From IMG/VR virus record IMGVR_UViG_3300031861_000009, positions 1 through 34,184 of that record: DNA of 34,184 nt; one strand, written 5' to 3'. This stretch comes from a virus (taxonomy: Duplodnaviria; Caudoviricetes). Below are positions 14,203 through 33,410 of the stretch, one piece after another. Each line of letters begins with the position of its first letter. The first letter of the stretch is position 1. The notes below the pieces were generated by a model. The model did no database searches, had not been told where the DNA came from, and was given only the letters and a program-made list of their open reading frames with translations. The position numbers were made by a program, and so were the translations under genes.

Positions 14203-14235
14203 GTAAACAACAACAACAACAACGGAGACAGAATT

Positions 14236-14469
14236 ATGAGTAAGTATTACGTCTTGGTAGTGAAGGAATTTGAAGACGAAGCGTTTGGCATGGAGTTTGG
14301 TTGTTATGACCGAAACAACGTTCGGGACGAATTAGCCGACGTGAAGTACACCAACAAGATGAATGGTCATAAAGCGAAGTACGCGATTCTCACTTGCCAG
14401 AATGCAACGCAAGCCAGTATCGACGCTCGCGTTGCTGACTACAACAAGTGTGAACCGACAACCTTTTGA
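14236..14469 (+). CDS. Hypothetical early protein
   Basis: (CAA)n-CGGAGA leader; 77 aa. Confidence 0.75.
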   Translation: MSKYYVLVVKEFEDEAFGMEFGCYDRNNVRDELADVKYTNKMNGHKAKYAILTCQNATQASIDARVADYNKCEPTTF

Positions 14470-14472
14470 AGT

Positions 14473-14489
14473 GCGGATATTAAAAGCAG
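14473..14489 (+). promoter_or_regulatory. Repeated 17-bp intergenic motif GCGGATATTAAAAGCAG, copy 1
   Basis: Exact copy at 14797-14813; both sit right after a stop codon and before a CAA leader. Confidence 0.45.
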
Positions 14490-14521
14490 ACAGTTACAAC
14501 AACAACACCGGAGACAGAGTT

Positions 14522-14794
14522 ATGAGTAAGAAACAATTACCGAGGTACGGAGTTTTGATCGCTCGCTTCACTGTACGAGAATGGCAGAAGAACGGTTGTG
14601 CTATCACAGTGGAATCAAACTGCGGCGAGAAGTACATCTTGATGGCTGGTGACGCCTCGCGTGGTAATGATTTGAGTGAAGTGAAACGTGGCACGAAGAT
14701 TCACGTCCGAAACAACAGGCATCCTGTTGAGAAAACAACGCCTCGGCAAACCGTAGTCGCGACGAGTTGGTATGTAATCACGATAGACGACTGA
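14522..14794 (+). CDS. Hypothetical early protein
   Basis: Start ATG 14522 after GGAGACAGAGTT. Confidence 0.7.
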   Translation: MSKKQLPRYGVLIARFTVREWQKNGCAITVESNCGEKYILMAGDASRGNDLSEVKRGTKIHVRNNRHPVEKTTPRQTVVATSWYVITIDD

Positions 14795-14796
14795 TA

Positions 14797-14813
14797 GCGG
14801 ATATTAAAAGCAG
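14797..14813 (+). promoter_or_regulatory. Repeated 17-bp intergenic motif, copy 2
   Basis: Identical to 14473-14489. Confidence 0.45.
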
Positions 14814-14851
14814 CAAGTAACAACAACAACAAAACTACAGGAGACAGAGTT

Positions 14852-15088
14852 ATGATCTACGTGGTCAACTATTCCGGCGACTCGCGAGGCGAAACGAAAG
14901 AATACTTTGAGTGGTGTACGATATTCGGCACACGAAAGGAAGCAATCAAGTGTGCTAAAGCATTATGCAATGAACAGAACAAGCGTTTGAAGTATGTTCC
15001 TCTCGATAGCGAAGAACATTACACGGACTACGATGCAACCAACTACATCTGCGTTCAACAAAGTCTTCATTGGTCAAACGGTGCATAG
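14852..15088 (+). CDS. Hypothetical early protein
   Basis: GGAGACAGAGTTATG leader; IFGTRKEAIKCA. Confidence 0.7.
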   Translation: MIYVVNYSGDSRGETKEYFEWCTIFGTRKEAIKCAKALCNEQNKRLKYVPLDSEEHYTDYDATNYICVQQSLHWSNGA

Positions 15089-15098
15089 CACCACGCAA

Positions 15099-15159
15099 GT
15101 CGAAACGCCTTCGGGCGTCAGGGCAGGATGGCTACCTGTCCTCTGATGAGACAAGCCAT
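15099..15159 (+). ncRNA. Hammerhead ribozyme, type II (HH2); predicted cut after C15119
   Basis: GUC-GAAA; stem III ACGCC-UUCG-GGCGU; stem I AGGGCAGG/CCUGUCCU; CUGAUGA-GAC; loop I AUGGCU pairs with 3' AGCCAU (pseudoknot). Confidence 0.93.
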
Positions 15160-15181
15160 TTACTTTTACCGGAGAGATGAA

Positions 15182-15874
15182 ATGAAGATTGTTACAAACG
15201 TGAAGCGTATCGCTAGAAACATCCGATTCATTCTGACTGCTGATCTTGCTGATGAGTCAAAGGGTCAAACAAAACTTTGGAAGAAACATCAGATCCTTGA
15301 ACACAGCATCGAGAAATGTGAAAAGGTGGTTGAGGAATACGACATCAACATTGAAGAGGCTGTCAGTGTTCAGATGGACAATGTGGAATTCGAACACCAC
15401 ATTGAAGAGGCTCTTGACCGCATTGATTGGGACGAACAGTGTCAGGAGGCAATGAACAACTATGACAGTACAGAAGATATAAGGATTGCAATTCAAGATT
15501 ATGACATTGAATCCGATATTGAAGAACGAATCAGCGACACTGATTGGTCCACGCATATCGGAGATTTTCTGTCAAGCAAAGTGTTCAAGGATCTGTTGAT
15601 TGATTCAAGTGAGGATCCAATTGATGAAGCAATCCAAAAATGTGTTGACGCCTTCGACTTCTCAGACCTATCCGAAAGCATGAACGAGTCTGCAAGAGAA
15701 TGCATATCAGATATGTTGAACAAGAAACTATCGAAATGCCTCAAGGTACTTGCTGCCACTTTGGAGGTTGAAGATTTTGAAGATGAAGATGATGACGTCA
15801 AGTTAGCGTTGGACGCTCAGGACAAGAAAGCAGAGATTGATCTTGCAAGCGACCCGCTACTTACCATTCTGTAA
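15182..15874 (+). CDS. Highly acidic protein with ~13-aa helical repeats
   Basis: Start ATG 15182 after CCGGAGA; very D/E-rich. Confidence 0.75.
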   Translation: MKIVTNVKRIARNIRFILTADLADESKGQTKLWKKHQILEHSIEKCEKVVEEYDINIEEAVSVQMDNVEFEHHIEEALDRIDWDEQCQEAMNNYDSTEDIRIAIQDYDIESDIEERISDTDWSTHIGDFLSSKVFKDLLIDSSEDPIDEAIQKCVDAFDFSDLSESMNESARECISDMLNKKLSKCLKVLAATLEVEDFEDEDDDVKLALDAQDKKAEIDLASDPLLTIL

Positions 15875-15905
15875 TATCTAACACCACCAACACCGGAGAA
15901 CAAAG

Positions 15906-16184
15906 ATGACTACAGCAAAAGTTGAATATCTTTCAAAGCCAATTCTTGATACAAGGATTTCACGTCCACCAAATCCAAGGGCAGGAATGACCCAGTACGG
16001 TTATACGTCCGTCAAAGGATCAGCAACGCATTGGATGATCGTGGTTGATGGTCGTAAAACATGGCGTCGAGTTTGGGTTTTATGCTTCTCAAATTCTGCA
16101 TCACACTTCATTAACATTAACGGTGACCGATTCTACTTGAAGGAAAGTCAGATGGAACAAATTATCACAGGAGTTACAGAATGA
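15906..16184 (+). CDS. Conserved phage hypothetical protein
   Basis: CCGGAGA RBS; GRKTWRRVWVLCFSNSASHFI resembles a motif common in small phage early proteins. Confidence 0.75.
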   Translation: MTTAKVEYLSKPILDTRISRPPNPRAGMTQYGYTSVKGSATHWMIVVDGRKTWRRVWVLCFSNSASHFININGDRFYLKESQMEQIITGVTE

Positions 16185-16381
16185 GCATTCTATTCCCAGA
16201 AATCAAAGTCCAGTTAACTGGCACTGACGGAAACGCGTTTGCAATCATCGGAAAAGTAATGAAGGCACTCAAGCGTGCTAACGTTTCTAAAGATGATCGC
16301 GACAAATTCATGTCAGAAGTAATGAGCGGCGATTACGACCACGTTTTACAAACGTGTATGAATACCGTAACAGTCACATAG
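16181..16381 (+). CDS. Conserved phage hypothetical protein
   Basis: VQLTGTDGNAFAIIG...SGDYDHVL, a widespread small phage protein motif; AGGAG RBS. Confidence 0.8.
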   Translation: MSILFPEIKVQLTGTDGNAFAIIGKVMKALKRANVSKDDRDKFMSEVMSGDYDHVLQTCMNTVTVT

Positions 16382-16447
16382 TCGAAACGCTGGTCGCAAG
16401 ATCAGCGTCCACAAGATCACGCCCAACTTGTGCTGATGAGACAGGGC
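16381..16447 (+). ncRNA. Hammerhead ribozyme, type II (HH3); predicted cut after C16409
   Basis: GUC-GAAA; stem III CGCUGGUC-GCAA-GAUCAGCG; stem I CACAAG/CUUGUG; CUGAUGA-GAC; loop GCCC pairs with 3' GGGC. Confidence 0.93.
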
Positions 16448-16472
16448 AACACCTTTACACGGAGACAGAGTT

Positions 16473-17411
16473 ATGACTACGAAAACCATGAGTGACGTTC
16501 AGCTTGCTGTTAGAGCAACTATTGACGAGACATTCACGAGGGAAGTTATCAAAGTGCCGTTGGCAGGACCGGACAACATGCCTAGTCCGCACTATGGATT
16601 ATGTTTCGATGATGCTGAGGGTCGTGATGATTGGATGTCACCCACAGTCAAGAAGGGATACATACCACATACCAAAGAGGATGTATCAATGTTGGCTGAG
16701 ACAGTCGCGGCTGGACTTGACTTGGGGCTTGAGGATGTCCAGATCAGTTGTTTCTTCAAACCTCACAGGGGTCATAGAGTAGCTGTTCAGCCTACAAAGT
16801 CGTATCGAAAAGCATTGTGTTCAAATGAACTTGATACCATGTGGCCCAAGTTCATTATCAATGCTAACTACGGTGGTTCATTCACGGCTCAGTGTGGTAT
16901 GTATCGCGATGCTTGTTCAAACATGCAGATGATGAGAAGGGTTGAACATACGACTGTCCATCTCAGGCACGTTGGTAACTTCCGAGAAAACTTCGACGAT
17001 ACCGTACAGCAATGGCGGTCACTCGCAACGCGGTTTGATTCGATTATGGAAGTGGCTAACAACCTCAAAGAGACGAAGGTACGTGCTGCTGATTTCTACT
17101 CGGCTTTGTACCCCGCTCCGTCTGAGGCAGATACAGTAGCCAAGCACAATCGACACAAGACCAAACTTGAGTCGATGATGGCAAGGTTGTTGAAGGAACG
17201 GGATCAACTATTGGAACCATCGAATGATGTTGTTCGCTGCAATCTGTGGGAACTGGTGAATAGTGTCACTGGATGGGTGCAGCATGACAAACGTAAGACG
17301 AAAGATGGTAACAAATTGTCAGAGGTTGAAAAATCATTCCTCGGTGTTGCTGATCGTGAGTCAGACAAGGCATGGGACTACGCTTTCGACAACTCAATGT
17401 TGAGTGTGTAG
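16473..17411 (+). CDS. DUF932/DUF945-like protein
   Basis: 312 aa; NANYGGS..YRDACSN...HLRHVG and NLWELVNSVTGWVQH match the family's conserved pattern. Confidence 0.7.
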   Translation: MTTKTMSDVQLAVRATIDETFTREVIKVPLAGPDNMPSPHYGLCFDDAEGRDDWMSPTVKKGYIPHTKEDVSMLAETVAAGLDLGLEDVQISCFFKPHRGHRVAVQPTKSYRKALCSNELDTMWPKFIINANYGGSFTAQCGMYRDACSNMQMMRRVEHTTVHLRHVGNFRENFDDTVQQWRSLATRFDSIMEVANNLKETKVRAADFYSALYPAPSEADTVAKHNRHKTKLESMMARLLKERDQLLEPSNDVVRCNLWELVNSVTGWVQHDKRKTKDGNKLSEVEKSFLGVADRESDKAWDYAFDNSMLSV

Positions 17412-17521: not shown

Positions 17522-17725
17522 ATGACAAACTCCGTAAGAATCAAAATCACAATCACAGAGAATATGCAAACTGCGTTACGCAAGCAATCGTCTGCTACAG
17601 GAGTCACAGTGTCCAAGTACATACGGGACACGTTGTCGTACACGCTCGTAAATGTTGATAACAGTTACTCAGTACAAGAGGACATTCAAGTTGGTAGGCC
17701 AGTAGTACCCAAGGAGCAAGGCTGA
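17522..17725 (+). CDS. Ribbon-helix-helix DNA-binding protein
   Basis: VRIKITIT strand, then helix-G-x-T-VSKYIR helix, the CopG/Arc pattern. Confidence 0.65.
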   Translation: MTNSVRIKITITENMQTALRKQSSATGVTVSKYIRDTLSYTLVNVDNSYSVQEDIQVGRPVVPKEQG

Positions 17726-18189
17726 TGAGATATAAAATAATCCAAGCAGAGTCAATTCATCTATCTGAAATAATGGAGATTGAATATCTGGCTCAAGATT
17801 CATGCTTGAAAAACTTTTTCGGTTGTGAAGGGTCTGAAGAGTCGAGCAATACTGTTTTGATATACAAGGATTCCAAGGATAATGTTCTTGGGTACATCAT
17901 GTATTCATTAGGAGTCGATGACGATGAAAATGAATACTGCCTCATCACTAGGTTAGCTACACATCCTTCATGTTGGCGACGAGGTGTTGCAAGGGCGTTG
18001 GTTGGACAAGTGAAACAAATTGCAAGATGTATATCGTCCAAGAGCATACCGCTGAGACTTGTAGTGAGACTTGATCAAGCTGTTATTGGGTTTGATCATT
18101 GTTTGAGTAGGCTTGGATTTCAATTTGAGAAGTCCGCAGGATGTGTTTCAATTTACTATGTACCGGAGAATGAAAATGACAACGAATGA
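17725..18189 (+). CDS. GNAT-family acetyltransferase (RimI-like)
   Basis: ITRLATHPSCWRRGVARALV acetyl-CoA motif A; RLGF motif B. Confidence 0.75.
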   Translation: MRYKIIQAESIHLSEIMEIEYLAQDSCLKNFFGCEGSEESSNTVLIYKDSKDNVLGYIMYSLGVDDDENEYCLITRLATHPSCWRRGVARALVGQVKQIARCISSKSIPLRLVVRLDQAVIGFDHCLSRLGFQFEKSAGCVSIYYVPENENDNE

Positions 18190-20945: not shown

Positions 20946-21159
20946 TTCAAAGCCTGATGATGACAAACCCGCAGGTGATTACGTTTGCGATACCTGCAAT
21001 GAACCATGCGATCTGATTTTGGAAGATTGCGGAATAGGAACGACCGAATTTTGGGGGTCAGTTGCTACGCATTCAGATTGGCGTTGGGTCTCAGACTGTT
21101 GTTGTGATGATGAAGTTTCAATAAAACCGGAGAATGAAAATGACCAAGGTAACAATTGA
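20938..21159 (+). CDS. Small acidic Zn-ribbon-like protein
   Basis: CDTC...GIGTTEFWG...SDCC; start ATG 20938. Confidence 0.65.
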   Translation: MFDSKPDDDKPAGDYVCDTCNEPCDLILEDCGIGTTEFWGSVATHSDWRWVSDCCCDDEVSIKPENENDQGNN

Positions 21160-21667
21160 TGTTGCTCGTAGAGAACTGTATTCAATATCAAAGTTTTATC
21201 CAACACTAGCAGGTCTTATGGCAAAGCCAGTAAAGGATGGAAGCAATCAGAAGTTCGGAACAGTTTGGACGAAAACAATCGTTGAAGCATCTCTGAACGT
21301 AGATCATTTCTGTAATGTTTGTGATGAATACGCAAGCGGAAGTATCGACATGCCTGATCCAAGCGACAGATTATGCAGAGAGATAATCAAAGAGACAAGA
21401 CGACGAACCAGCGAGGAACAACGCAGGCTTGAGCAGTTTCAAAAGTATCATAACAAGAAGAACGCAGGAGCCATTATGAAGTCTGTACGGGATGATGGAT
21501 TGTACGGTTGGTATTCAATTGAACTTGGTAGGATGTTAAGAGATAAACAACTGACTCAAGAAGAACACGACGAAAAATTCAATCAGATCCGTGACTATGA
21601 TCGAGGTGGTGAACTACCTGACTGGGCAAGACATGACAAAGTTATACGAGAGAACAATTCCATATAA
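21140..21667 (+). CDS. Hypothetical protein (possible replication accessory)
   Basis: CCGGAGA RBS; helical protein directly upstream of the RusA-like gene. Function is a guess from position. Confidence 0.55.
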   Translation: MTKVTIDVARRELYSISKFYPTLAGLMAKPVKDGSNQKFGTVWTKTIVEASLNVDHFCNVCDEYASGSIDMPDPSDRLCREIIKETRRRTSEEQRRLEQFQKYHNKKNAGAIMKSVRDDGLYGWYSIELGRMLRDKQLTQEEHDEKFNQIRDYDRGGELPDWARHDKVIRENNSI

Positions 21668-22225: not shown

Positions 22226-22558
22226 ATGCGTTTTTCAACTTTATGTTTGTTAGTTGCTGGGTTGTTAATTGTGTCAATGATTGATACAGGCCCGACAACA
22301 GCAGGTGACTTCAATACAGCCGATGAAGTTTTAGTTATTGAAGAACCAGTAGCTGTTAATGCAGTTCGCACAAGAACGGTAACAGTTCAGCGTGGTAGCA
22401 TTGCAGAAGCAGTCTGTGGACCAAATGGATGTGGAGTACAGGGAGTTTTGAGCCGGGTAGTTTCTCGGCCGAATCAACCAGTTCGTAGTTTTTTGAAACG
22501 ACTACGATCACGTTCATACAGGCGGGATGTTTCTGTGACTCTCGGTTGTAGCAAGTGA
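22226..22558 (+). CDS. Secreted/membrane-anchored protein
   Basis: N-terminal signal-like hydrophobic helix; CGPNGC motif; basic C-terminus (QPVRSFLKR). Confidence 0.7.
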   Translation: MRFSTLCLLVAGLLIVSMIDTGPTTAGDFNTADEVLVIEEPVAVNAVRTRTVTVQRGSIAEAVCGPNGCGVQGVLSRVVSRPNQPVRSFLKRLRSRSYRRDVSVTLGCSK

Positions 22559-22980
22559 TGCGTGATCTTGCTTTGCTGTCAGCGATTGCATTTGTTTTTC
22601 TTTTCGCAAATTCAAGTGGAACAGTCGCTGACAGTCCTGTAGTTTCACGAATCATTTATGTCGTTGATGCTGTTCAATTGCCTGATGCAAAGATTTTGCG
22701 TGGACAGGACATTGCACAAAAGCGAGCTAACTATATGGCTCGTAATAATCGCAAGGGTCATCCACCAAAATCTGCCGGTAATCAATGGTCGATTAAGGGT
22801 GCAAACTTTGAAGGGGTTGGGTGGCGTAGCAATTCTAATGTAGCCAAGAAAACAATTGGCACTTGCCGCCCTTCTGGTAGGTCAGGGTCACAGGATGATA
22901 ACAGTCGATCATTACTTGGTGATGCTGTAGCTCACAGTCGATATGGTTCGTTTCGTGTTCGTATTTGGGGTCGAAAATGA
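22558..22980 (+). CDS. Secreted protein, degenerate CAP/SCP-like
   Basis: Signal peptide; AQKRANYMARNNRKGH...FEGVG...GDAVA. Confidence 0.5.
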   Translation: MRDLALLSAIAFVFLFANSSGTVADSPVVSRIIYVVDAVQLPDAKILRGQDIAQKRANYMARNNRKGHPPKSAGNQWSIKGANFEGVGWRSNSNVAKKTIGTCRPSGRSGSQDDNSRSLLGDAVAHSRYGSFRVRIWGRK

Positions 22981-23345
22981 TTAACAACAAAACATTCCAG
23001 TTCCTCGCTGGTTGCGTGGTGATATTTCTATCATTTCGCTTATGGCAAGAGGGATGGATTGATGGATACCTTGCCGTTGAATCGAATGATGGGTCAGTTG
23101 AAAGTTTGGATCTTGTTGCAATGTTCATATCAGCCGCAGTATCGGCTGTTCAAATGGTCGGTCTTGTTGCTATCGGTATATTCCAACCACTGATTGTTGG
23201 TTTGATAGGACAAATGAAAAGTTTTACGACTACTGGTGACGCATCAGTAACAACGTCTGAGATTGATACCAGTGAACTGAATAGAGTCTTGACAGACATT
23301 GCTACAAGATTGACTAAGTTGGAGTCAACTAGCAATGGCGATTGA
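22977..23345 (+). CDS. Membrane protein (2 TM, holin/spanin-like candidate)
   Basis: Two hydrophobic segments and a C-terminal coiled coil. Confidence 0.55.
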   Translation: MINNKTFQFLAGCVVIFLSFRLWQEGWIDGYLAVESNDGSVESLDLVAMFISAAVSAVQMVGLVAIGIFQPLIVGLIGQMKSFTTTGDASVTTSEIDTSELNRVLTDIATRLTKLESTSNGD

Positions 23346-23721
23346 CATAACGAAACAACGAAGTAGCCAACCAAAATCAATACTGTGGATCATTTGTTTG
23401 GTCGTTGTGGTTTTGTTCGTTGTGAATGCCAGAAATGAACCGACAGTTATCATTGATCCTGTGTCGAAAGATACTGTGTTGATAGTCCCGCCTGTTGGCG
23501 TTGGATCCAGCATGAAGATTGATGAATGGGCGAAGGAAAACAATGTTGAGATTCGTCGGTATCGTGAGGGTGATGATTTGACATTGGCCGAGCCGGACAT
23601 AAGACGATTGTTTGAACTAACGAAGGGCAAGCAGCCATGTGCCATAACATCAATTGATGGACAGGTGAAAATCATTCCAATCAATGACGACTTGTTGAAG
23701 AAGTTGGAGTCATTGAAATGA
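23335..23721 (+). CDS. Single-TM membrane protein
   Basis: ILWIICLVVVVLFVV anchor; directly upstream of the peptidase. Confidence 0.6.
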   Translation: MAIDITKQRSSQPKSILWIICLVVVVLFVVNARNEPTVIIDPVSKDTVLIVPPVGVGSSMKIDEWAKENNVEIRRYREGDDLTLAEPDIRRLFELTKGKQPCAITSIDGQVKIIPINDDLLKKLESLK

Positions 23722-24473
23722 TGGATCATGGGTATGTGTCGCGAGACTATGAAAAGCATCCTGTCGGATACTGCTCACCAACGTATCAGGGTGAAGTTTA
23801 TGATCGGTCTGATTGGCCTGATTTGATTTCAGCACAGCAAAAAAACCAATCTTCACCGCTTGACGTTCATAAATTCAATGATGTTCCTATCCTCAATCAG
23901 ACGACTTGGAAGTATTGTTGGATGTTCGCAATTGTTGCGGGAGTTATGAACCGTTATGCGTTTCAGGGAATCAATGATCCTGTATCAGAGTTATCAGCAA
24001 CAGCAGTAGCAGCACAAGGCAAGAACTATCGCAACAAAGGTGGGTATTGCTCAGAAGCAGTTGAGTATGTTCAGAAGTTTGGAATACCAGAGGCATCGAC
24101 TTGGCCGAATAACAAATCGGGCAGGAGTTATTCAAGGCTTGAAACGGTGAAGGAATCATCAAAGCGATCAAACATTGTTCAGTTTGAAGATATTGGACAA
24201 GGCGTAGACAAAGCAATATCAGCATTGATTTCACCTGACCCAGCACCAGTTACATTCTCGTTGAGATGGTGGAGACATGCTATTCTCGGTTTGAGTGTTA
24301 GTTACCGCAAACGAAGAAATCCACTCGACCTAAACAGTTACCGATTGAATTTCGTTAATTCATATGGACCACGATACGAACAGAATGGATTCGGAAAACT
24401 TGCTGGGACTCAAATGGTCGCGGACGAATACATTGTAATACGCAGAGTGAAAGTTAAGTCAGATGATAGCTAG
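23718..24473 (+). CDS. Papain-fold (C1-like) cysteine peptidase
   Basis: Oxyanion Q and catalytic C in NQTTWKYCWMFA, H in WWRHAI, N in VNSYG. Confidence 0.8.
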   Translation: MMDHGYVSRDYEKHPVGYCSPTYQGEVYDRSDWPDLISAQQKNQSSPLDVHKFNDVPILNQTTWKYCWMFAIVAGVMNRYAFQGINDPVSELSATAVAAQGKNYRNKGGYCSEAVEYVQKFGIPEASTWPNNKSGRSYSRLETVKESSKRSNIVQFEDIGQGVDKAISALISPDPAPVTFSLRWWRHAILGLSVSYRKRRNPLDLNSYRLNFVNSYGPRYEQNGFGKLAGTQMVADEYIVIRRVKVKSDDS

Positions 24474-24681
24474 TGCCGACCCTACTATGGTTTCTATGTT
24501 GCTTGGTGCGATGGCAACTCTTGGGACAGTCGTTGCTGTTCTGTATAGACACATTCAAAACAATTTCACGAGGGTCGAGAGCAAATTGGATGATTGCGAA
24601 GTTGATAGGCTCAATTTATGGGAAGTCATTGCGAAACAAGCGGGATGCAGAGTTGAGGAATTGAAAAGAGATAACAAATGA
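24463..24681 (+). CDS. Holin-like small membrane protein
   Basis: One TM helix followed by a charged coiled coil (LDDCEVDR). Confidence 0.5.
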   Translation: MIASADPTMVSMLLGAMATLGTVVAVLYRHIQNNFTRVESKLDDCEVDRLNLWEVIAKQAGCRVEELKRDNK

Positions 24682-25868
24682 CACAAACACTGACGTACAA
24701 AAACGACACGGGTGCGAGTGGAACATACATTCAACAGGATGTTGATGTTGATGGTGTGTCGCTGTTGCAGTCTGCCGGTGATATTACGTCAGTGGTTCTG
24801 AAAATCACATGGAACGCACCATACGATTGGCAACACTCAGAGTGCTATGTTAATGATCCTGATGGTTCAACTCATTATATGTTCACGGCTGGTTCTTTGC
24901 CGTTTGGATCAGGTGTGAGGACTGACACACTGACAATTGCATCGGGTAGTTTTCCTTCGTCAATTGATGGCGTGTGGGAATTTTACCTTGATGATCAGAT
25001 GGGCAGTTCAAACACACTCGATGAGGTTGTTGTTGACATTGAGGTTACATCAGCACAAATGCCAACAACCTACGGTGAAATCATTTGGCATAACGCTGAT
25101 AACTATCAGGGCGGCATTGATGTGTCAGGAAATGCTCGGCACGTTTACCCGGCAAACAGTGCAAGCATTGTTACCCAAACAGGATCAACAGGAACGCACG
25201 CATTTGATTTCAATGGCACTGATCAGTTTTGGGGTGATGACACCCTGACAAGTACGGCAGGCACGGCAACGATGAGTGTGTCAGCATGGTTCAGGCACAA
25301 TGGTACAAGCGGCATTCAGGTCATCGCCTGCAATCATGGCAGCAACAAAGGGCAATGGTCGTTGTATCGAAGCGGTACAAGTGTTTATTTCTACGCTGGT
25401 TATTATCTACAGACGGTATCAGGTGGTAGCGATGCGGAATTGTTCTATGCAGGTGGTGCGGCAAATACCTCAAACACGTGGTATCACGTCTGCGTTTTGT
25501 GGGATGGTGGTGAGGCATCATTGGACAAAGTGAAAATGTTTATTGACGGCACTCAGATCGCGTCAACCATTTCAACCCGTGTGACCTACGGCAGCGGGTT
25601 GAGTGTTCTACCGGCTGGAAGTGTGTCAGGGCCGCATCCACCGTATACGATTGGTGCATTGCAGGAATGTTCTATTGGCGGTGGGCCAACCGGAACGCTG
25701 TTGTATCCGTTTGGCGGTCAGGTTGATGCTGTGCGATCATGGTCGAGTGTTTTAACTGCTGATGACATTGCATGGGTTTCATCCGGCAGAAATGTTGCGG
25801 GTGGTCCCACGAGTTTCAAATCCTATTTCATTCAAACTTCAAATCCGGTGGGTTTCACCAATGCGTAA
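24678..25868 (+). CDS. Fibre/decoration protein with P-domain-like and LamG/ConA-like jelly-roll domains
   Basis: DGVWEFYLDD (proprotein-convertase P-domain-like); FDFNGTD, SVSAWF, WYHVC, MFIDG and FGGQVDAVRSWS (LamG). Confidence 0.7.
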   Translation: MTQTLTYKNDTGASGTYIQQDVDVDGVSLLQSAGDITSVVLKITWNAPYDWQHSECYVNDPDGSTHYMFTAGSLPFGSGVRTDTLTIASGSFPSSIDGVWEFYLDDQMGSSNTLDEVVVDIEVTSAQMPTTYGEIIWHNADNYQGGIDVSGNARHVYPANSASIVTQTGSTGTHAFDFNGTDQFWGDDTLTSTAGTATMSVSAWFRHNGTSGIQVIACNHGSNKGQWSLYRSGTSVYFYAGYYLQTVSGGSDAELFYAGGAANTSNTWYHVCVLWDGGEASLDKVKMFIDGTQIASTISTRVTYGSGLSVLPAGSVSGPHPPYTIGALQECSIGGGPTGTLLYPFGGQVDAVRSWSSVLTADDIAWVSSGRNVAGGPTSFKSYFIQTSNPVGFTNA

Positions 25869-26865
25869 AAACATATCAGGTCAATCAGTTAGTTTTTTGG
25901 CTCTTGCAAGTGCAGATGGTTCACCCGTCACCTCTGGTACTCCAGCAATCGTATTATCGAAAGACGGTGCGGCACAAACTGCATCATCGAACAGTGCAAC
26001 ACATTTTGGCAATGGTGTTTGGGGTTTGGATCTGACGCAGGGCGAGACGAATTGTGATCATCTGGTTGCGTCAATGACCCTCGCAACAGCCGTTGGGTCA
26101 ATGGTTCAAGCGTATCCGTATGTTGCTTCTGATTTCATGGCAGATGTAACATCACTGGCAACGTCATCAGCCGTATCTGCATTGAACAATTTTGATCCAG
26201 CATCGGATGTTGTTGCAACTGTTACCACTTGCACGACAAATTCGGATATGCGTGGTACTGATTCAGCAGCAACTGCCGCCAACCTAGCAGTTGTCGATGG
26301 TGTAGTTGATTCAAACAACGCAATACTAGACAAATTGAATACAGCGTTGGTTCTTGACGGTGCTGTTTATCAATTTACGACTAACGCGTTGGAGAATGCA
26401 CCGTCAGGTGGTTCGGCACCAACAGCGAGTGATATTTATGCTTACTTCATATCAGGAAGCAACGAAGATGCGTTCAAAGCTGACATAACATCGCTTGCAA
26501 CAGCCTCGGCCGTTTCAGCGTTGAATGATTTTGACCCCGCATCAGATTCGGTAGCGAACGTCACACTGGTTGCCACCTGCACCACGAACACTGATCAGCG
26601 AGGAACAGACGGTGCGAACACAACCGTTCCAGACAATTCAGGTATCAGTTCAAATGGAACAGCAATCGCAGCATTGAATAACTTCGATCCTGCTGCTGAC
26701 ACTGTTGCAAATGTCACGCTAGTTGGCACATGCACATTGAACAGTGATATGCGTGGAACTGATGCTGCTGCAACTGCTGCTGCATTGCTAACCGTTCCAA
26801 AGTTGAATACCGCTTACACTCACACAAATCAGGCGGCTGATACGATGACCGTCACAATTACATAG
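25861..26865 (+). CDS. Fibre-like structural protein with three internal repeats
   Basis: ALN(N/D)FDPA...CT.N.D.RGTD occurs three times; Ala/Thr-rich; start ATG 25861. Confidence 0.65.
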   Translation: MRKNISGQSVSFLALASADGSPVTSGTPAIVLSKDGAAQTASSNSATHFGNGVWGLDLTQGETNCDHLVASMTLATAVGSMVQAYPYVASDFMADVTSLATSSAVSALNNFDPASDVVATVTTCTTNSDMRGTDSAATAANLAVVDGVVDSNNAILDKLNTALVLDGAVYQFTTNALENAPSGGSAPTASDIYAYFISGSNEDAFKADITSLATASAVSALNDFDPASDSVANVTLVATCTTNTDQRGTDGANTTVPDNSGISSNGTAIAALNNFDPAADTVANVTLVGTCTLNSDMRGTDAAATAAALLTVPKLNTAYTHTNQAADTMTVTIT

Positions 26866-27488: not shown

Positions 27489-27796
27489 TCTGCTCTGACC
27501 AGAGTTGACAGGGGGCTGAAAGGGGTCACAATAGGCTAATCGCCCCCCCCTTTCACGAGTCCACAGGATAGCCATAGGGCAATTCAGCCCAAATTGGACG
27601 TGGTTAGGCAAAGGCGGAGGGAAGTCAGCTAATTTGGGGACTGTTGGCCCCTGAATAGGCTCTGAGAGGGTCATTTGGGAAGGTAGGTACTATATCGGTC
27701 ATTCAGGACTGATAGTCCAAGAGAGAACACCTGTCCTTCCTTTGTTTTAGGATTCCAAAGTCACGCGAAAGCATTTGGGGAATGGGGTTGAACTAG

Positions 27797-28459
27797 ATGA
27801 AAGTTTTAATGATTGGTGTTGACAAGCTCACGTCTCACCCACGAAATTACCGGGAACATCCAACTGACCAATTGGATCACATCAAGCAATCGCTCACTCA
27901 GTTCGGTTTCTATCGAAATGTTGTATCGACGAAAGGCAATGTGATTCTCGCTGGGCATGGAGTAGTCCAAGCAGCGAAGGAACTTGGTATCGAAAAGGTA
28001 CCAGTCATGCAAGTTGACTTGGAGCCAGAGTCGACGGCAGCGTTGAAGATACTTACGGGTGATAACGAAATAGCATCTCTCGGTATCATCGATGATCGCG
28101 AGCTAACCAATATGCTCAAGCAAATCCGTGATGAAGATGAACACGGACTTCTCGGCACGGGTTTCGATGATCAGGTGTTAGCCAATCTTGTAATGGTTAC
28201 ACGAACAGGAACAGAGGTTGAAGATTTCAACGCTGCCGCTGAGTGGGTGGGAATGCCTGAGTACGATAGCGAGGCTGAGGACACTTTTAAGTTGTTAATC
28301 AAGTTTGAGACACTCGATGAGAGAGTTGCATTCTTGAAAGAAAAGTGTGATATCGACAAGGCAACAGAGTTCAAAAATAATACTGCTGCCATCTGGTATC
28401 CTCCAAAGACACCACGAGATACTAAGTCAGTAGCATTCGATGATGCGGACAAGAAGTGA
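27797..28459 (+). CDS. ParB/Srx-like N-domain protein
   Basis: HPRNYREH..Q...IKQSL..FGF...ILAGHG..AAKELG; C-terminal EWVGMPEY...IWYP domain. Confidence 0.85.
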   Translation: MKVLMIGVDKLTSHPRNYREHPTDQLDHIKQSLTQFGFYRNVVSTKGNVILAGHGVVQAAKELGIEKVPVMQVDLEPESTAALKILTGDNEIASLGIIDDRELTNMLKQIRDEDEHGLLGTGFDDQVLANLVMVTRTGTEVEDFNAAAEWVGMPEYDSEAEDTFKLLIKFETLDERVAFLKEKCDIDKATEFKNNTAAIWYPPKTPRDTKSVAFDDADKK

Positions 28460-29364
28460 TAAAGCATCCAAGATACCCGATATACATTCCGAGCAAGGGA
28501 CGTTATGGACGAAGTGAAACTGCTCGCATGTTTGACAAATACGAGACACCCTATCGGGTTGTAGTTGAGCCACAAGAGGTTGACAACTATGCGAAAGCAC
28601 TCGGCAAAGACAAGCTAGTTGTTCTTCCTGAAAATGATCAAGGGTTGGTTTACGCTCGAAACTTCTGCAAGCAGCATTCAATTGATGAAGGGCATGAAAG
28701 ACATTGGCAGTTTGATGATGACATAAGAATGATGGGCCGCATGTATAAGCGTGAGCGAATCCAATGCAATTCATCAATAGCAATAAGTGCCGTAGAAGAT
28801 TTCATAGAGCGTTATGAAAATGTTGGCCTATGTGCATTCAACCATATTGGATTCCTTGGACCGCAACAAGCAGTTCCGCCATTCTATTTGAACACGCGAT
28901 GCTACACATGCTTTTGTATGTGGAACAAACTTCCGAACACATGGCGGTACAGATACAACGAAGATACAGATATGTCCTTGCAGGTTATTGCGGCGGGATA
29001 TTGCACGATCATGTTCAACGCGTTCTTCATGCAAACGTGTGACACGAACTATGGTGGTAAGGAATCAAAGGTTGAAGGTGGTCAACAAGCAGTGTATGCA
29101 GATGACGGACGACTGAAAATGTCGCGTGATCTTGAACGGCAATGGCCGGGTGTAGTAACTACTGAACGAAAGTTTGGTAGACCACAACACAAGATCAAAT
29201 CCAATTGGACCAAGTTTGATACTCAATTGATTCGAAAGAAAACTATTGATTTCGATGCTATGGAGAAGATAGATGAACTTGGAATGAAAATGATGACCGT
29301 TCAAGAAATCAAACACGATGACGTAAAACGAATACTCAAGGAGTATGAACAAGAGCATGGATAA
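28456..29364 (+). CDS. TAGT/GREB1-like GT-A glycosyltransferase (putative DNA-base glycosyltransferase)
   Basis: YPIYIPSKGR, ARN, HWQFDDDI, WRYRYNEDTDMSLQ and GG motifs of the phage TET-associated glycosyltransferase family. Confidence 0.8.
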   Translation: MIKHPRYPIYIPSKGRYGRSETARMFDKYETPYRVVVEPQEVDNYAKALGKDKLVVLPENDQGLVYARNFCKQHSIDEGHERHWQFDDDIRMMGRMYKRERIQCNSSIAISAVEDFIERYENVGLCAFNHIGFLGPQQAVPPFYLNTRCYTCFCMWNKLPNTWRYRYNEDTDMSLQVIAAGYCTIMFNAFFMQTCDTNYGGKESKVEGGQQAVYADDGRLKMSRDLERQWPGVVTTERKFGRPQHKIKSNWTKFDTQLIRKKTIDFDAMEKIDELGMKMMTVQEIKHDDVKRILKEYEQEHG

Positions 29365-30136
29365 CAATGTCAAGATCGTTGTTCCCTACGGCAATCAAAA
29401 ACAAGCGGAGAAGTTTGCTGAAGCATGGGGGGTGACGTGGGGTACTGACTATATGGTGTTCACTTACGATCGGCACAAGCAGGGGTGTGCCATGACAAAG
29501 AACGAAGGAATCAAGACTGCTGTAGCACAGGGTGCTGATACGATTGTTGTTTTGGACGATGATTGTTTTCCTACAAAAGAGCATCCAACCCTTCCTGATC
29601 TTACAGCTTCGCATCTGGAAGCACTTGAACCGCAGCAAGTAAAGATGTTCAAAGAGGTGACGTTTCCATTGTCGAGAGGAACGCCATACTTGAACCAAAA
29701 CAAAAACATGACATTGCCGGTAGCATGTTCGATGGGATTCTGGTCTGAGATAGGCGACTACTGTGCCGCGAGACAGCTTGCATTTGAAGGGCAAGACATG
29801 GAGTTCAAGCATGAGCCGATATTCCAGCAATACTTTCCATTGTGTGGAATGAACATAGCATTCCATCCTGAACAATGGTTGCCTTGGTGTTTGTTTATCG
29901 ACGTGAATCGGTACGATGATATTTGGATGGGTTGGCTATGGCAACGTGAAGCGTATCGAAAGAATCATTGTTTCGCTTTGAACGGACCAACAATACGTCA
30001 CTCAAGACAAAGTGATGTTTGGAAGAACCTGAAAATCGAAGCAGAGTATGCAAAGCAAAACGACACGCTTTGGCGTGAGATCGCTACTGCTGAATATGAA
30101 ACATACGACGATCTGAGGGGACTGCTACCTGTATGA
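29345..30136 (+). CDS. RGP/GT75-like (UDP-arabinopyranose mutase-like) GT-A protein
   Basis: LDDDCFP, SRGTPY, LCGMNIAF and RYDDIWMG parallel the plant RGP motifs DDDC, RGYPF, CGMNLAF and RYDDMWAG. Start 29345 or 29357. Confidence 0.7.
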   Translation: MNKSMDNNVKIVVPYGNQKQAEKFAEAWGVTWGTDYMVFTYDRHKQGCAMTKNEGIKTAVAQGADTIVVLDDDCFPTKEHPTLPDLTASHLEALEPQQVKMFKEVTFPLSRGTPYLNQNKNMTLPVACSMGFWSEIGDYCAARQLAFEGQDMEFKHEPIFQQYFPLCGMNIAFHPEQWLPWCLFIDVNRYDDIWMGWLWQREAYRKNHCFALNGPTIRHSRQSDVWKNLKIEAEYAKQNDTLWREIATAEYETYDDLRGLLPV

Positions 30137-30981
30137 GTAAACAACCGATCATTGATACCGCTGGGCTAGTGGATCAAATGAAACAAACAAATGACAATAG
30201 ACAGCTAACAGCTAGTCGGCAGTTTATGTTTACAAAGGTTGGACGTACCGCATCCGAGTCAATGCACCAAGAACTATTGGGGAACGTCAAAAACTATCTG
30301 AGGCTTGGTCGCGTCAGACAGTTGATTGAGTTTTACAGTACAGACAAGTCAGACAAATCATGGGATAGGGAAACAATAAACCTTTGCCATAATCATATTC
30401 CCATCAGGTCTATGATCGCAGGTGAATTGTTTTCGATGGACTGGTATCATTCGCTTTACAAATGGGGCGGGTGTCGGAATCCTTGGGACAGGCTGGTATC
30501 ATTCTGGCGAATCAAACAGTCAGACCAACGAGGTGCAGGGATAGCCGATAAATGCAACACGTTTGAAGAATTGGTTACAAGACTTGAGAACCATGAAGGA
30601 CGAAACTTCATTCCTGAAAGTAACAAGTACACAATTATGCAACCCATGTGGAGATGGTTGCTACCTGAGTTTGATTACATAACGAGATATGAGTGTTTGA
30701 AAACAGATTGGAAGGTTGTCACAAAGCAGTTGGGCATACCTGAATTGAAGTTGGAAAAACATAATTCATATCACAATCAAACAGATACCAAAAAGCGAAA
30801 GTCATACCTTGATTATTACGACAGTAGATTAGCCAAGAGGGTTGGCATACTATACAAGGATGATTGCAAGATATTCGGGTATGCTGACATTGAAGATCGA
30901 AAGCCATTTGATCAACTCCGAATAAAGAAATATCTCAAAACACATTGGTCAAAACTTGGATACAACGGAGCATCCCAGTAA
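30133..30981 (+). CDS. Sulfotransferase (Sulfotransfer_2-like)
   Basis: 5'-PSB-like KVGRTASES, 3'-PB RNPWDRLVS, DYITRYE.LK.DW, and YLDYYD...YKDD..IFGY. Confidence 0.8.
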   Translation: MSKQPIIDTAGLVDQMKQTNDNRQLTASRQFMFTKVGRTASESMHQELLGNVKNYLRLGRVRQLIEFYSTDKSDKSWDRETINLCHNHIPIRSMIAGELFSMDWYHSLYKWGGCRNPWDRLVSFWRIKQSDQRGAGIADKCNTFEELVTRLENHEGRNFIPESNKYTIMQPMWRWLLPEFDYITRYECLKTDWKVVTKQLGIPELKLEKHNSYHNQTDTKKRKSYLDYYDSRLAKRVGILYKDDCKIFGYADIEDRKPFDQLRIKKYLKTHWSKLGYNGASQ

Positions 30982-31315
30982 AGCCGATATTCGTTTATTT
31001 CATCGAGCTATGTCGCAACGTTGGCCTATGCCATCAGAGTATCGGGATGCAATGATCAAGAGATTGATACGGGTAGTTGCAGATCCATCTAGCAGTAACA
31101 GAGACATTGCCGCCGCTAGTCGTGTATTGATTTCAGCAGAGCAACAAAATCAACAGGACGACCAATATGAAATGGACTCTAACCAAAGAGGAAATCGGTT
31201 TCTTGATGTCGCTGCCGGACTTGGAATTGCAAAAGCTATTGATCAGCTATCCAGAAACGGAACAGCAACAAATCATCTCACAGTTGATGCAGGAATCATC
31301 GACACAAAAGACTGA
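30956..31315 (+). CDS. Putative terminase small subunit
   Basis: 119-aa helical protein immediately upstream of and overlapping terL. Confidence 0.5.
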   Translation: MDTTEHPSKADIRLFHRAMSQRWPMPSEYRDAMIKRLIRVVADPSSSNRDIAAASRVLISAEQQNQQDDQYEMDSNQRGNRFLDVAAGLGIAKAIDQLSRNGTATNHLTVDAGIIDTKD

Positions 31316-33410
31316 CGCTGAAAAGCAGAGGACAAAAAGCCGTGACCGGGATTCAGGGACGCAAGCCAGAGCGAAGCACGCCCGCAAGACTCGTCTTGCA
31401 TTACAAGATACTTCTCCGTTGCCTGATGATCTTACTGACGAAGAATCATTAGTCCGAAACAAATCAGATGAATCTCTTTTGTATCATCTACAAACGTGCT
31501 ATCCAAATGCGTTTGGGTTGCCCTTCTCAGATGATCACCTTCGGCTGATTGAGCAAATACAGATTGCATGTTGTGAAGGTGAGTTGAAAGCGATAGCAAT
31601 GCCACGAGGCAGCGGCAAGACAACCATAGTAGTCAGAGCAGGGTTATGGGCATTGCTTGCTGGTCATCGAAAGTTTGCAGTCATAGTAGCGGCTACAGAA
31701 GCATTCGGTCAAAAGTTATTAACGAGTATCAAGACTGAAATTCTAACGAATGGGATTCTGAGTACACTGTACCGTCAAGAACTACACTGCCTTCAAGCGT
31801 TGGAAGGTGAAGCAAAGCGGGCAATAGGTCAACGATTCAATGGCAAGAAAACAAACGTCCAATGGCTTAGTGGTCAAATAGCATTTGGGTATGTCCCGAA
31901 TGTTTCTACGTCAGGGGCCATCTTGTCCTGCTGCGGATTGACTGGGAATATCAGGGGTCAACAGGTGACAGGAGTTGACGGTGTAATCCATCGACCTGAC
32001 TTGGTATTGGTAGATGACCCTCAAACAAAAGAATCAGCATCATCACCTTCGCAATGTCAGAAGAGACATGAGATAATGATGGGTGATGTTTTGGGTATGG
32101 CTGGACCACATACAGCTATCAGTGCGTTATGTACTTGCACAGTAATCTACAAGAATGATTTGGCAGATCAACTTCTGGACCGAAAAGTATCACCTGTTTG
32201 GCAGGGCGAGACATGCAAGATGGTTTACAAGTGGCCCAACAATGAGGAACTATGGGACAGGTATAGAACAGTATGGGAAGATGAATTGCGTTCAGATGGA
32301 AACGGTAGCATTGCAAGATCATTCATCAAAGACAATTACGATGAAATGCACGAAGGATCACAAGTGGGATGGGATCATCGTTATAGCTCAAACGAAGTGT
32401 CTGCATTGCAACATGCGTATAACTTGAAGTTTCGGGATGAAGCAGCGTTTCATGCTGAGTATCAAAACGATCCTCTTGCCTCACTACAAGAAACACCTTT
32501 TGAATTAAGTGCAGAGCAGATTGCACGCAAGACTAACAACGTGAAGCGTAGACGTATTCCAAGTGAGTGCGAGAAGATCACAACATTTATTGATGTCCAA
32601 AACAATGTTCTGTTCTATACGCAGGTTGCATGGGAGATGCAGGGACGCGGTCATGTAATTGACTACGGAACATACCCTGATCAAAGGCGTCTGTACTTCA
32701 CCAAGAAGCAGATCGAATATACGTTACAGGATGTAGGTAAAACAGAGAATTTGAATGAAGCAATTTATCTTGGACTGGAACAGCTTGTAACGCAGTTATT
32801 TGAACGCAAGTATTACAGAGAGGATAAAACAATTATGACTCTTGATCGCTGCGGAGTGGACGCACGTAGCGGATACCACACAAGAGTAGTGAGAAGATTT
32901 TGTCGAGAAACAAAATATATGGGTCGCGTACATCCTCAGTTCGGATTATACATTGGCAAAGATGGAAAGCCTTGGCATCAATGGACGCATAACAAGAAGC
33001 ATAGAATGGGTGTTCATTGCCGAATGCAACCACCACCCAAAAATGAACGAGGTGTTCGTGAACTAATGGTGGATACAAACTGGTGGAAAACATTTACAGC
33101 TGAAAGACTTAGTGCTAGTGCAGGATCAGATCAATCAATGTTGCTATTTGATGAGTCCCCTACAGTTCATCGAATGTTTGCTGAGCATATGATTTCAGAA
33201 ATCCCAATTCAGGTCGTAGGCAAAGCTGGCAATGAAGTCATAGAGTGGAAGCACTCAGGCCACATGAATAATGATTTCTGGGATTGCCTCGTTGGTAATT
33301 CTGTACTTGCATCAATTGAAGGAATCAGAATTGATGTAGACGGTGAACAAGTTAGGAAACAGAAACCAAAACGTAACCGAAGAAAACCATCAAACTTCGT
33401 AGGGATATGA
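31167..33410 (+). CDS. terL: Terminase large subunit (gpA-like nuclease domain)
   Basis: Walker A MPRGSGKTT, Walker B LVLVDD, nuclease motifs FIDVQ and NDFWDC; upstream of gpW and portal. Confidence 0.9.
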   Translation: MKWTLTKEEIGFLMSLPDLELQKLLISYPETEQQQIISQLMQESSTQKTDAEKQRTKSRDRDSGTQARAKHARKTRLALQDTSPLPDDLTDEESLVRNKSDESLLYHLQTCYPNAFGLPFSDDHLRLIEQIQIACCEGELKAIAMPRGSGKTTIVVRAGLWALLAGHRKFAVIVAATEAFGQKLLTSIKTEILTNGILSTLYRQELHCLQALEGEAKRAIGQRFNGKKTNVQWLSGQIAFGYVPNVSTSGAILSCCGLTGNIRGQQVTGVDGVIHRPDLVLVDDPQTKESASSPSQCQKRHEIMMGDVLGMAGPHTAISALCTCTVIYKNDLADQLLDRKVSPVWQGETCKMVYKWPNNEELWDRYRTVWEDELRSDGNGSIARSFIKDNYDEMHEGSQVGWDHRYSSNEVSALQHAYNLKFRDEAAFHAEYQNDPLASLQETPFELSAEQIARKTNNVKRRRIPSECEKITTFIDVQNNVLFYTQVAWEMQGRGHVIDYGTYPDQRRLYFTKKQIEYTLQDVGKTENLNEAIYLGLEQLVTQLFERKYYREDKTIMTLDRCGVDARSGYHTRVVRRFCRETKYMGRVHPQFGLYIGKDGKPWHQWTHNKKHRMGVHCRMQPPPKNERGVRELMVDTNWWKTFTAERLSASAGSDQSMLLFDESPTVHRMFAEHMISEIPIQVVGKAGNEVIEWKHSGHMNNDFWDCLVGNSVLASIEGIRIDVDGEQVRKQKPKRNRRKPSNFVGI

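What the first reader, a model, noticed from the sequence alone, without database searches (positions are those of the whole stretch)
27797..30981. Terminase-linked ParB + TAGT glycosyltransferase + RGP-like mutase + sulfotransferase: possible sulfated-sugar DNA hypermodification
Seen: four overlapping genes running directly into terS/terL. Known: ParB-like genes beside terminases mark predicted packaging-coupled DNA-modification loci; TAGT/GREB1-like enzymes glycosylate hydroxymethyl-pyrimidines; RGP/GT75 proteins interconvert UDP-arabinopyranose and furanose; Sulfotransfer_2 enzymes sulfate sugars using PAPS. Notably there is no TET/JBP, hydroxymethylase or methyltransferase gene to create the usual acceptor. 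Inference: a new pathway adding a furanose sugar and then sulfate to DNA at an unknown acceptor, or alternatively to virion proteins.
Basis: partly seen in the sequence, partly recalled or inferred. Interest (0 to 1): 0.85.

Follow-up and report, generated by a model that had tools for sequence, protein, structure and literature searches.

The report
Phage sulfated-sugar DNA decoration kit
The first four genes at one end of this marine phage's genome encode a helper protein, a sugar transferase, a likely sugar-ring converter and a likely sulfate adder, which together likely put a sulfated five-ring sugar on a few sites of the phage's own DNA without any of the known enzymes that normally prepare DNA to receive a sugar.

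Summary
Four overlapping genes (ParB-like, TAGT, GT75/RGP, Sulfotransfer_2) run into the terminase genes of a complete 34-kb phage and start 67 nt from the likely cos end. No TET or thymidylate-synthase-type hydroxymethylase is found.

New here: a ~70-aa unannotated domain (WxGMPE…WyP) at the ParB C-terminus accompanies this TAGT clade in 75/80 viral and 65/80 prokaryote-genome loci, as ParB tail, stand-alone gene or TAGT fusion (including cultured Aeh1). The clade also sits beside beta-clamps, helicases and polymerases, and is fused to PolA (1 locus) or a UDG domain (2), which points to DNA as acceptor. One relative has UDP-galactopyranose mutase where GT75 would be, suggesting galactofuranose. 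The sulfotransferase is fused to TAGT or ParB elsewhere.

GCGC and CCWGG never occur, so any modification is probably sparse, not T4-style armour. The acceptor atom is unknown, nothing is shown biochemically, and virion glycosylation stays a live rival. The scan noted this cassette before on other DNA. Verdict: new variant of known phage DNA glycosylation; categorically new if TET-independent base glycosylation and DNA sulfation are confirmed.

The parts
27717..27729 (.). likely 13-nt cohesive end (cos); the packaged genome would start at 27730 and end at 27716
   Evidence: contigs of 4 runs from 4 studies (one a possible source of the window) begin exactly at 27730; two end exactly at 27716; one 33,013-nt contig runs from 27730 round to 27716. 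Two related genomes also start and end in this intergenic stretch. Reading the gap as a 3' overhang lost in end repair is inference.
27797..28459 (+). ParB-like protein: ParB N-domain (GHGV, lacking the arginine seen in several relatives) plus C-terminal partner domain
28220..28447 (+). unannotated WxGMPE...WyP domain (ParB C-terminus), near-constant companion of this TAGT clade
   Evidence: no Pfam or PDB match; 3,470 clusters at 50% identity
28456..29364 (+). TAGT-family GT-A glycosyltransferase with R68, D86-D87-D88 and N168-E169-D170 motifs and 23 conserved basic positions
   Evidence: (pLDDT 92)
29345..30136 (+). GT75/RGP-like protein, predicted NDP-pyranose/furanose mutase
   Evidence: DDD71-73, R111, D138, R189, D192, H219, R221 align to MtdL D109-111, R159, D195, R257, D260, H287, R289
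30133..30981 (+). Sulfotransfer_2-family protein with 5'-phosphosulfate loop (KVGRTAS) and 3'-phosphate motif (RNPWDRLVS); motif names recalled
   Evidence: pLDDT 92; best Foldseek matches are sulfotransferases, weak: E 7e-4, TM 0.3-0.45
30956..31315 (+). probable small terminase (by position only)
31167..33410 (+). large terminase, lambda gpA-like nuclease domain

Best explanation
The cassette likely puts a sulfated furanose sugar, most likely sulfo-galactofuranose, directly on a canonical base at sparse sites of the phage's own replicated DNA, without a TET or hydroxymethylase priming step. Predicted steps: (1) the GT75 protein converts a host UDP-pyranose (UDP-Galp favoured) to the furanose; (2) the TAGT transferase, working with the WxGMPE domain and brought to DNA by the ParB-like protein late in infection, transfers the sugar to a base, my guess being an exocyclic amine; (3) the sulfotransferase uses host PAPS to sulfate the sugar. 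Shown: gene order, domain content, motif conservation, fusions, absence of recognisable priming enzymes, restriction-site depletion. Inferred: every activity, the DNA acceptor, the sugar, the physical CTD-TAGT partnership and the purpose (a sparse mark against modification-reading or sliding defences, or a packaging mark).
For: DNA acceptor: single ORFs fuse CTD-TAGT to a 3'-5' exo/PolA (L110, one 3.5-kb contig) and to a UDG domain (L232, L256). CTD-TAGT lies near beta-clamp genes (L079, L084, L090, L104, L106, L124), beside clamp loader and DNA polymerase (henriette 12B8), helicases (PANV1), a DNA end protector (Kuja), and at the end of a TET-ADDT-kinase operon (L248). In a quick ML tree, terminase- and replication-linked copies interleave in one 99%-supported group of 48 of 59 rows; starred branches force at least 5-7 label changes. 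R...DDD...ED motif as in phage 5hmC GT-A enzymes and JGT. ParB NBD+CTD proteins activate a DNA-modifying enzyme (PMC13229309). Furanose: GT75 residues; L003 has Glf (3e-51) and no GT75; all 5 contexts seen for the close sulfotransferase clade hold a furanose maker (window, L001, L002, L269 GT75; L003 Glf). A phage Glf is proposed to feed DNA galactosylation in RL38JI (PMC13326640). One pathway: TAGT-ST (P0128, partial record) and ParB-CTD-ST (P0129) fusions. No priming: Tet_JBP in 0 of 25 records or genomes holding this TAGT clade or the GT75 gene; a TET relative in 1/80 viral and 1/80 genome loci.
Against: No experiment on any member; a canonical base offers no hydroxyl, and no N-glycosylated DNA base is known to me (recalled). 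GCGC is 0 against 66 expected, CCWGG 0 against 34, and 6-bp palindromes have O/E 0.45, lower than unmodified T7 (0.59) and far below T4 (0.89); relatives G001 and G002 show the same. So there is no broad protection. TET-carrying P12024L also lacks GGCC, so avoidance does not exclude sparse marks. The PolA fusion and the Glf swap rest on one contig each; none of the 30 other Glf loci had a TAGT. GT75 differs from MtdL at two residues essential there (D87 to A49, Q229 to M169) and lacks its C-terminal helices. Most records searched for TET are incomplete, and the paper seen says Pfam misses divergent 5mYOX genes. GT75 and ST are rare add-ons: GT75 in 2/80 and ST in 0/80 loci. A TAGT-related protein (GREB1) is reported to glycosylate protein (PMC7968844).
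Confidence: 0.45

Rival explanations
1. Same DNA target and sugar, but a priming enzyme that I cannot recognise (a divergent phage protein or a host enzyme) first makes a hydroxylated base, so the chemistry is ordinary O-glycosylation.
For: All characterised phage relatives in the papers seen act on a hydroxyl (hmC, or a sugar on hmC). Thousands of 5mYOX contigs lack the Pfam TET hit. L248 carries TET upstream of CTD-TAGT. Conserved unannotated ORFs exist in the window, e.g. 15128-15874 and 21134-21667.
Against: No recurring unknown gene travels with CTD-TAGT in the 80 genome loci; the commonest neighbour clusters occur 3-5 times and are terminases, portals, clamps and methyltransferases. The four-gene run abuts terS with no room for another gene, and such pathways are usually clustered.
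Confidence: 0.22
2. The cassette glycosylates and sulfates virion proteins (capsid or tail), as mycobacteriophage glycosyltransferases do, making a sulfated glycan coat.
For: First genes of the late operon. Sugar genes between portal and protease in Cluster O phages (PMC4351075); capsid glycans reported for Che8 (second-hand, PMC11256854). L004/L005 add a cytidylyltransferase, NeuB and a sulfotransferase between terL and portal. Five distant GT75 loci (L058-L062) sit before a terminase with GDP-mannose dehydratase and FkbM genes but no TAGT. Ser/Thr-rich ORFs at 24678-26865 (22-23% S+T). Restriction-site avoidance fits unmodified DNA. GREB1 precedent.
Against: Does not explain the ParB partner, the PolA and UDG fusions, or the same enzyme clade sitting in replication operons.
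Confidence: 0.22
3. The genes act on something else (host proteins, a defence signal or host surface glycans), or the furanose and sulfate genes work apart from TAGT.
For: Close GT75 relatives also occur with no TAGT nearby (L046, L050-L053); Glf plus sulfotransferases without TAGT in 3 of 31 Glf loci.
Against: Fusions tie ST to both TAGT and ParB; tight translational coupling; late position.
Confidence: 0.11

Closest known systems
Post-replicative phage DNA glycosylation by C5-MT + TET/5mYOX + GT-A (Burke 2021; Pyle bioRxiv 10.1101/2023.12.21.572611), and JGT/base J
   Same: Pfam TAGT, GT-A fold, R...DDD...ED motif, ParB and terminase neighbours, extra transferases and sugar-tailoring genes
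   Different: No TET or methyltransferase; a separate TAGT clade with a constant WxGMPE partner (absent from TET-linked P12024L gp27); GT75 mutase and sulfotransferase added
ParB-dependent T-dioxygenases (PMC13229309)
   Same: ParB with N-domain and C-domain, no DNA-binding domain evident, coupled to a modifying enzyme; CTP residues dispensable there, an arginine missing here
   Different: Partner here is a glycosyltransferase, and the C-domain can be free or fused to it without ParB; homology between the two C-domains was not tested
Furanosylated 5-hydroxycytosine of RB69, DLP3 and RL38JI (PMC13326640)
   Same: Furanose sugar on phage DNA; phage-made NDP-furanose, with Glf proposed in RL38JI
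   Different: Those use a pre-replicative thymidylate-synthase-type hydroxylase, absent here; no sulfate; no GT75
T2/T6 beta-glucosyl-HMC-alpha-glucosyltransferase (PHROG 842)
   Same: Best PHROG label (2.6e-41)
   Different: Adds glucose to an existing alpha-glucosyl-hmC; no T2/T6 record among the 25 tblastn hits; no first sugar step here
Aeh1ORF087c-type orphan glucosyltransferase, listed as 'presumably modifies DNA, unknown base' (PMC8056088 citing Iyer 2013)
   Same: Aeh1 p093 is a CTD-TAGT fusion of this clade in a phage lacking gene 42; probably the same gene, identity not checked
   Different: No GT75 or sulfotransferase gene annotated beside it; the partner domain was not described in the passages seen
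GT75 mutases MtdL, Hyg20, plant UAM/RGP (PMC9937993)
   Same: Metal, phosphate and sugar-binding residues kept
   Different: 263 aa, no C-terminal helical domain, two sugar-site changes, phage-encoded
Mycobacteriophage virion glycosylation (Che8, Corndog)
   Same: Sugar enzymes in or near the morphogenesis operon
   Different: Those genes are not described as TAGT or ParB-coupled in the passages seen

Membership tests
TET/JBP-associated GT pathway | TAGT/GT-A transferase with R...DDD...ED motif | tested here: met
TET/JBP-associated GT pathway | TET/5mYOX gene to make hmC/hmU | tested here: not met
   (control P12024L rang); divergent members could be missed
TET/JBP-associated GT pathway | glycosylated base in virion DNA | not testable with these tools
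   needs LC-MS
Pre-replicative hmC/hoC glycosylation (T-even, RB69, RL38JI) | thymidylate-synthase-family hydroxy(methyl)ase | tested here: not met
   0 of 18 records (window, 16 viral relatives, 1.076.O); T4 control gave three matches
Pre-replicative hmC/hoC glycosylation (T-even, RB69, RL38JI) | little restriction-site avoidance, as expected of blanket modification | tested here: not met
   6-bp palindrome O/E 0.45 vs T4 0.89 (40-kb stretch)
GT75 NDP-pyranose mutase | DDD, conserved Arg (R159), D195, R257, D260, H287, R289 | tested here: met
   (profile E 0.007 to MtdL); Pfam RGP above cut-off
GT75 NDP-pyranose mutase | D87/S91 and Q229 sugar-site residues; C-terminal helical domain | tested here: not met
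   A49 and M169; protein ends at 263 (alignment). Plant enzymes also differ from MtdL at D87 and S228
GT75 NDP-pyranose mutase | mutase activity and donor identity | not testable with these tools
   indirect: Glf in L003
Sulfotransfer_2 PAPS sulfotransferase | 5'-PSB loop and 3'-PB RxPxxRxxS motif, P-loop fold | tested here: met
   the phage clade has Lys where most other homologs have His two residues before the loop Pro
Sulfotransfer_2 PAPS sulfotransferase | sulfate transfer to the sugar | not testable with these tools
   needs assay
Chromosomal ParB CTPase clamp | intact GxxR CTP motif (recalled) and HTH DNA-binding domain | tested here: not met
   GHGV-type motif in 10 of 16 aligned ParB rows; Pfam hit only to ParB_N, below cut-off
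ParB-type activator of a DNA-modifying enzyme | physical or functional partnership with the enzyme | tested here: inconclusive
   fusion and adjacency support it; no complex model could be made; activity untested
Virion-protein glycosylation cluster | glycan on capsid or tail proteins | not testable with these tools
   needs virion MS

The most novel reading that the evidence does not exclude
A widespread two-part phage enzyme (WxGMPE domain + TAGT; about 3,500 partner-domain clusters at 50% identity) glycosylates canonical DNA bases directly, with no priming step. It is loaded either by a ParB clamp at the packaging end or by the replisome. In this phage the sugar is a GT75-made galactofuranose capped with sulfate, which would be the first sulfated DNA and the first N-glycosylated base in a genome known to me.
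Probability: 0.35. Interest if true: 0.9.

Novelty: new variant of a known kind. Interest (0 to 1): 0.66.

Why it matters
About 65% of phage DNA-type glycosyltransferase contigs in a published survey have no neighbouring priming enzyme and were set aside; Aeh1's is listed as acting on an 'unknown base'. If these need a small missing subunit, the WxGMPE domain, then a large orphan family becomes testable at once in cultured phages (Aeh1, PANV1, henriette 12B8, 1.076.O) or in E. coli. A positive result would give a new route to modified DNA, the first phage use of a GT75 mutase known to me, sulfate on DNA, and an enzyme that labels unmodified DNA. A virion-glycan outcome would still be a new sulfated furanose coat on a marine phage.

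Tried and rejected
A CTD-seeded locus scan could not run (no conserved stretch), so the reverse question, whether the CTD always has a TAGT beside it, is untested; one search gives only protein counts and lengths.

My early reading of TAGT-UDG (L009) and GT75-UDG (L047) fusions was wrong: these were wrong-frame ORFs, and UDG is a separate neighbour there. The real fusions are L232 and L256.

PDB sequence search with the sulfotransferase profile gave only noise. The CTD has no Pfam, PDB or named Atlas match; its likeness to chromosomal ParB C-domains is recalled and not confirmed. A recurring neighbour (L008, L010, L269) resembles Nmad3/Nmad2 only at lead level (0.88, 26% of cluster). Promoter and terminator scans were at chance level. 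No RNA holder was listed. The Glf survey found no second TAGT+Glf locus. The metagenome sulfotransferase scan gave one new cassette (L269) and one repeat of L003 among 80 rows. Blanket anti-restriction armour was rejected. CheckV's 45% completeness was rejected: terminal repeat, two same-size syntenic relatives and an end-to-end contig.

Iyer 2013 (NAR) and Freeman 2023 were not held; they may already mention parts of this, as may closed bioRxiv supplements of Pyle et al. Searches listed no paper describing this cassette; search 135 and one search gave no DNA data for PANV1. The tree is the quick one; the careful run did not finish, and context labels were assigned by me.
Full report
WHAT THE WINDOW IS. 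The window is a circularly assembled tailed-phage genome with a 127-nt terminal repeat. Its recognisable genes are all on the + strand: portal, major head, tape measure, RecE/RecT, RusA and a gpA-like terminase. No polymerase or integrase was recognised. Two relatives of 33-34 kb are syntenic. The best-covering runs are marine metagenomes. Contigs from four studies start at 27730 and two end at 27716, so the packaged genome likely begins 67 nt before the ParB gene, with a 13-nt cohesive end (inference). The cassette is therefore the first four genes of the virion genome, ahead of terS/terL.

OBSERVATION. Confirmed at the stated coordinates, with overlaps of 4, 20, 4 and 26 nt and Pfam hits ParB_N (sub-threshold), TAGT, RGP and Sulfotransfer_2. 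AlphaFold models of the transferase and sulfotransferase are confident (pLDDT 92) and match GT-A enzymes and, weakly, sulfotransferases. Tet_JBP is absent from the genome and from 25 of 25 related records or genomes, with P12024L as ringing control. The thymidylate-synthase family is absent from 18 of 18 such records; Aeh1 has a match and the T4 control rang. Most of these records are incomplete.

A HIDDEN PARTNER DOMAIN. The last ~70 residues of the ParB protein (WxGMPE...F...WyP) match no Pfam or PDB entry, yet the profile finds 3,470 clusters at 50% identity. The domain occurs as the ParB tail, as a 74-104 aa gene directly before TAGT (L012-L025), or fused to TAGT's N-terminus. It was found in 75 of 80 viral loci (best 80 of 589 hits from 11/64 of the collection, with near-duplicates). 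In 80 prokaryote-genome loci it was found in 65: 25 on ParB, 25 adjacent with no ParB hit (some truncated), 14 fused, 1 triple fusion; 11 not found and 4 lost by my ORF caller. Of six cultured phages examined it is fused to TAGT in Aeh1, PANV1, PTm1, Kuja (both copies) and 1.076.O, adjacent in henriette 12B8, and absent from TET-linked P12024L. A different C-domain pairs with a different TAGT clade in L044/L049. I infer a two-part enzyme; binding was not modelled. The ParB N-domain reads GHGV in 10 of 16 rows, in line with CTP residues being dispensable in ParB activators of T-dioxygenases (PMC13229309; abstract and sections 9, 12, 13 read).

WHY DNA. The CTD-linked TAGTs form one group (99%, 48 of 59 rows, quick tree) in which terminase-linked and replication-linked copies interleave (labels are mine). 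Replication contexts include beta-clamp, PolA/B/III, helicases and clamp loader. Single ORFs join CTD-TAGT to exo-PolA (L110) or a UDG domain (L232, L256). L248 appends CTD-TAGT to a TET-ADDT-kinase operon. The clade keeps 23 basic positions. A substrate shared by replisome and packaging contexts is most simply DNA (inference).

THE SUGAR AND SULFATE. The 263-aa protein keeps MtdL's DDD, R159, D195, R257, D260, H287 and R289 equivalents but not D87 or Q229, and lacks the C-terminal helices (PMC9937993 parts 1-3 of 7 read). It has Pro near the N-terminus and Gly at S228, as the plant UDP-using enzymes do; a plant enzyme also converts UDP-Galp. L003 has ParB-TAGT-ST-Glf-terminase with no GT75, which suggests galactofuranose. 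This is one contig; 30 other Glf loci lacked TAGT. Furanoses on phage DNA and a Glf-fed route are in print (PMC13326640; passages and section 28). The close sulfotransferase clade was seen in context 5 times, always with TAGT and a furanose maker, and is fused to TAGT (P0128, partial) or ParB-CTD (P0129). In the 30 GT75-seeded rows (with duplicates) 13 have an adjacent TAGT, 3 lack upstream sequence, 5 close and 9 distant rows have none. Other cassettes swap in second TAGTs, methyltransferases or radical-SAM genes, so GT75 and ST are optional decorations: 2/80 and 0/80.

AGAINST. The genome has purged GCGC and CCWGG and has a 6-bp palindrome O/E of 0.45 (T7 0.59, T4 stretch 0.89), so it behaves as restriction-sensitive DNA; any mark is sparse. 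P12024L, with TET and TAGT, also lacks GGCC, so this does not exclude modification. Genomes lacking the gene 42 network are described as probably without major dCMP modification (PMC2993671, passages), while Aeh1's transferase is listed as acting on an unknown base (PMC8056088, passages). Virion glycosylation has precedent (PMC4351075 and PMC11256854, passages; Freeman 2023 not held), GREB1 is reported to act on protein (PMC7968844, passages), and L004 and L058-L062 look like surface-glycan clusters.

MECHANISM AND ODDS. Direct, priming-free transfer of a furanose to a base, then sulfation: 0.45. DNA with an unrecognised priming enzyme: 0.22. Virion proteins: 0.22. Other: 0.11. The exocyclic-amine acceptor is a guess by elimination; no call bears on it.

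COMPARISON AND NOVELTY. It works like post-replicative phage DNA glycosylation (Pyle bioRxiv: abstract, section 6, passages; supplements not seen) but fails membership of the TET and hydroxymethylase pathways. ParB + GT + terminase neighbourhoods and orphan TAGTs are already noted in print. Searches listed nothing on the GT75/sulfotransferase cassette or the partner domain; Iyer 2013 could not be read. Two earlier scan notes describe this cassette type on other DNA; they are not independent support. Verdict: new variant of a known kind, interest 0.66, with a 0.35 chance of categorically new chemistry that cultured phages make directly testable.

Noticed in passing
window 1-34184: GCGC (0 vs 66 expected) and CCWGG (0 vs 34) are wholly absent, also in two related genomes; both are C5-cytosine methylation and restriction sites (recalled), hinting at host systems of those specificities. 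Eleven 6-bp palindromes with at least 4 expected are also absent.
   Followed up: yes
window 27717-27729: 13-nt gap between contig ends in several studies, likely a 3' cos on a lambda-gpA-like terminase phage.
   Followed up: yes
window 12645-16484: About 8 copies of a CAACAACAACACCGGAGA-type leader just before the starts of small early ORFs, likely a shared translation-initiation or recombination cassette.
   Followed up: no
window 17725-18189: GNAT acetyltransferase in the early region, conserved in two relatives (33-36%); a phage GNAT is listed as a presumed DNA modifier in PX29.
   Followed up: no
window 23718-24473 and 22226-23721: Papain-family peptidase after several small ORFs with hydrophobic N-termini: possible unusual lysis module. 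The style recalls planctomycete phages (recalled, untested).
   Followed up: no
L044:5291-6992 and L049:473-2219: A second, different ParB C-domain (AAERHTVF...KAIENGFV) paired with a different TAGT clade, also followed by GT75: suggests cognate partner-enzyme pairs.
   Followed up: partly
L065:4903-5103 (Aeh1 p092): A second, stand-alone copy of the WxGMPE-type domain right after the fused CTD-TAGT gene (E 2e-6).
   Followed up: partly
L110:665-3463: CTD-TAGT fused to a family A DNA polymerase in one ORF that runs off the contig.
   Followed up: partly
L248:225-3979: TET + amino acid:DNA transferase + P-loop kinase + CTD + TAGT in one operon.
   Followed up: partly
L058-L062: Terminase-adjacent GDP-mannose dehydratase + distant GT75 + glycosyltransferase + FkbM clusters without TAGT or ParB: candidate furanose virion-glycosylation loci.
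   Followed up: no
L004:4445-6682: Cytidylyltransferase, NeuB and sulfotransferase between terL and portal in a ParB-TAGT-GT75 phage.
   Followed up: no
L008:9777-10760, L010:9630-10496, L269:709-1620: Recurring unannotated protein inside GT75 cassettes, Nmad3/ASCH-like at lead level only.
   Followed up: partly
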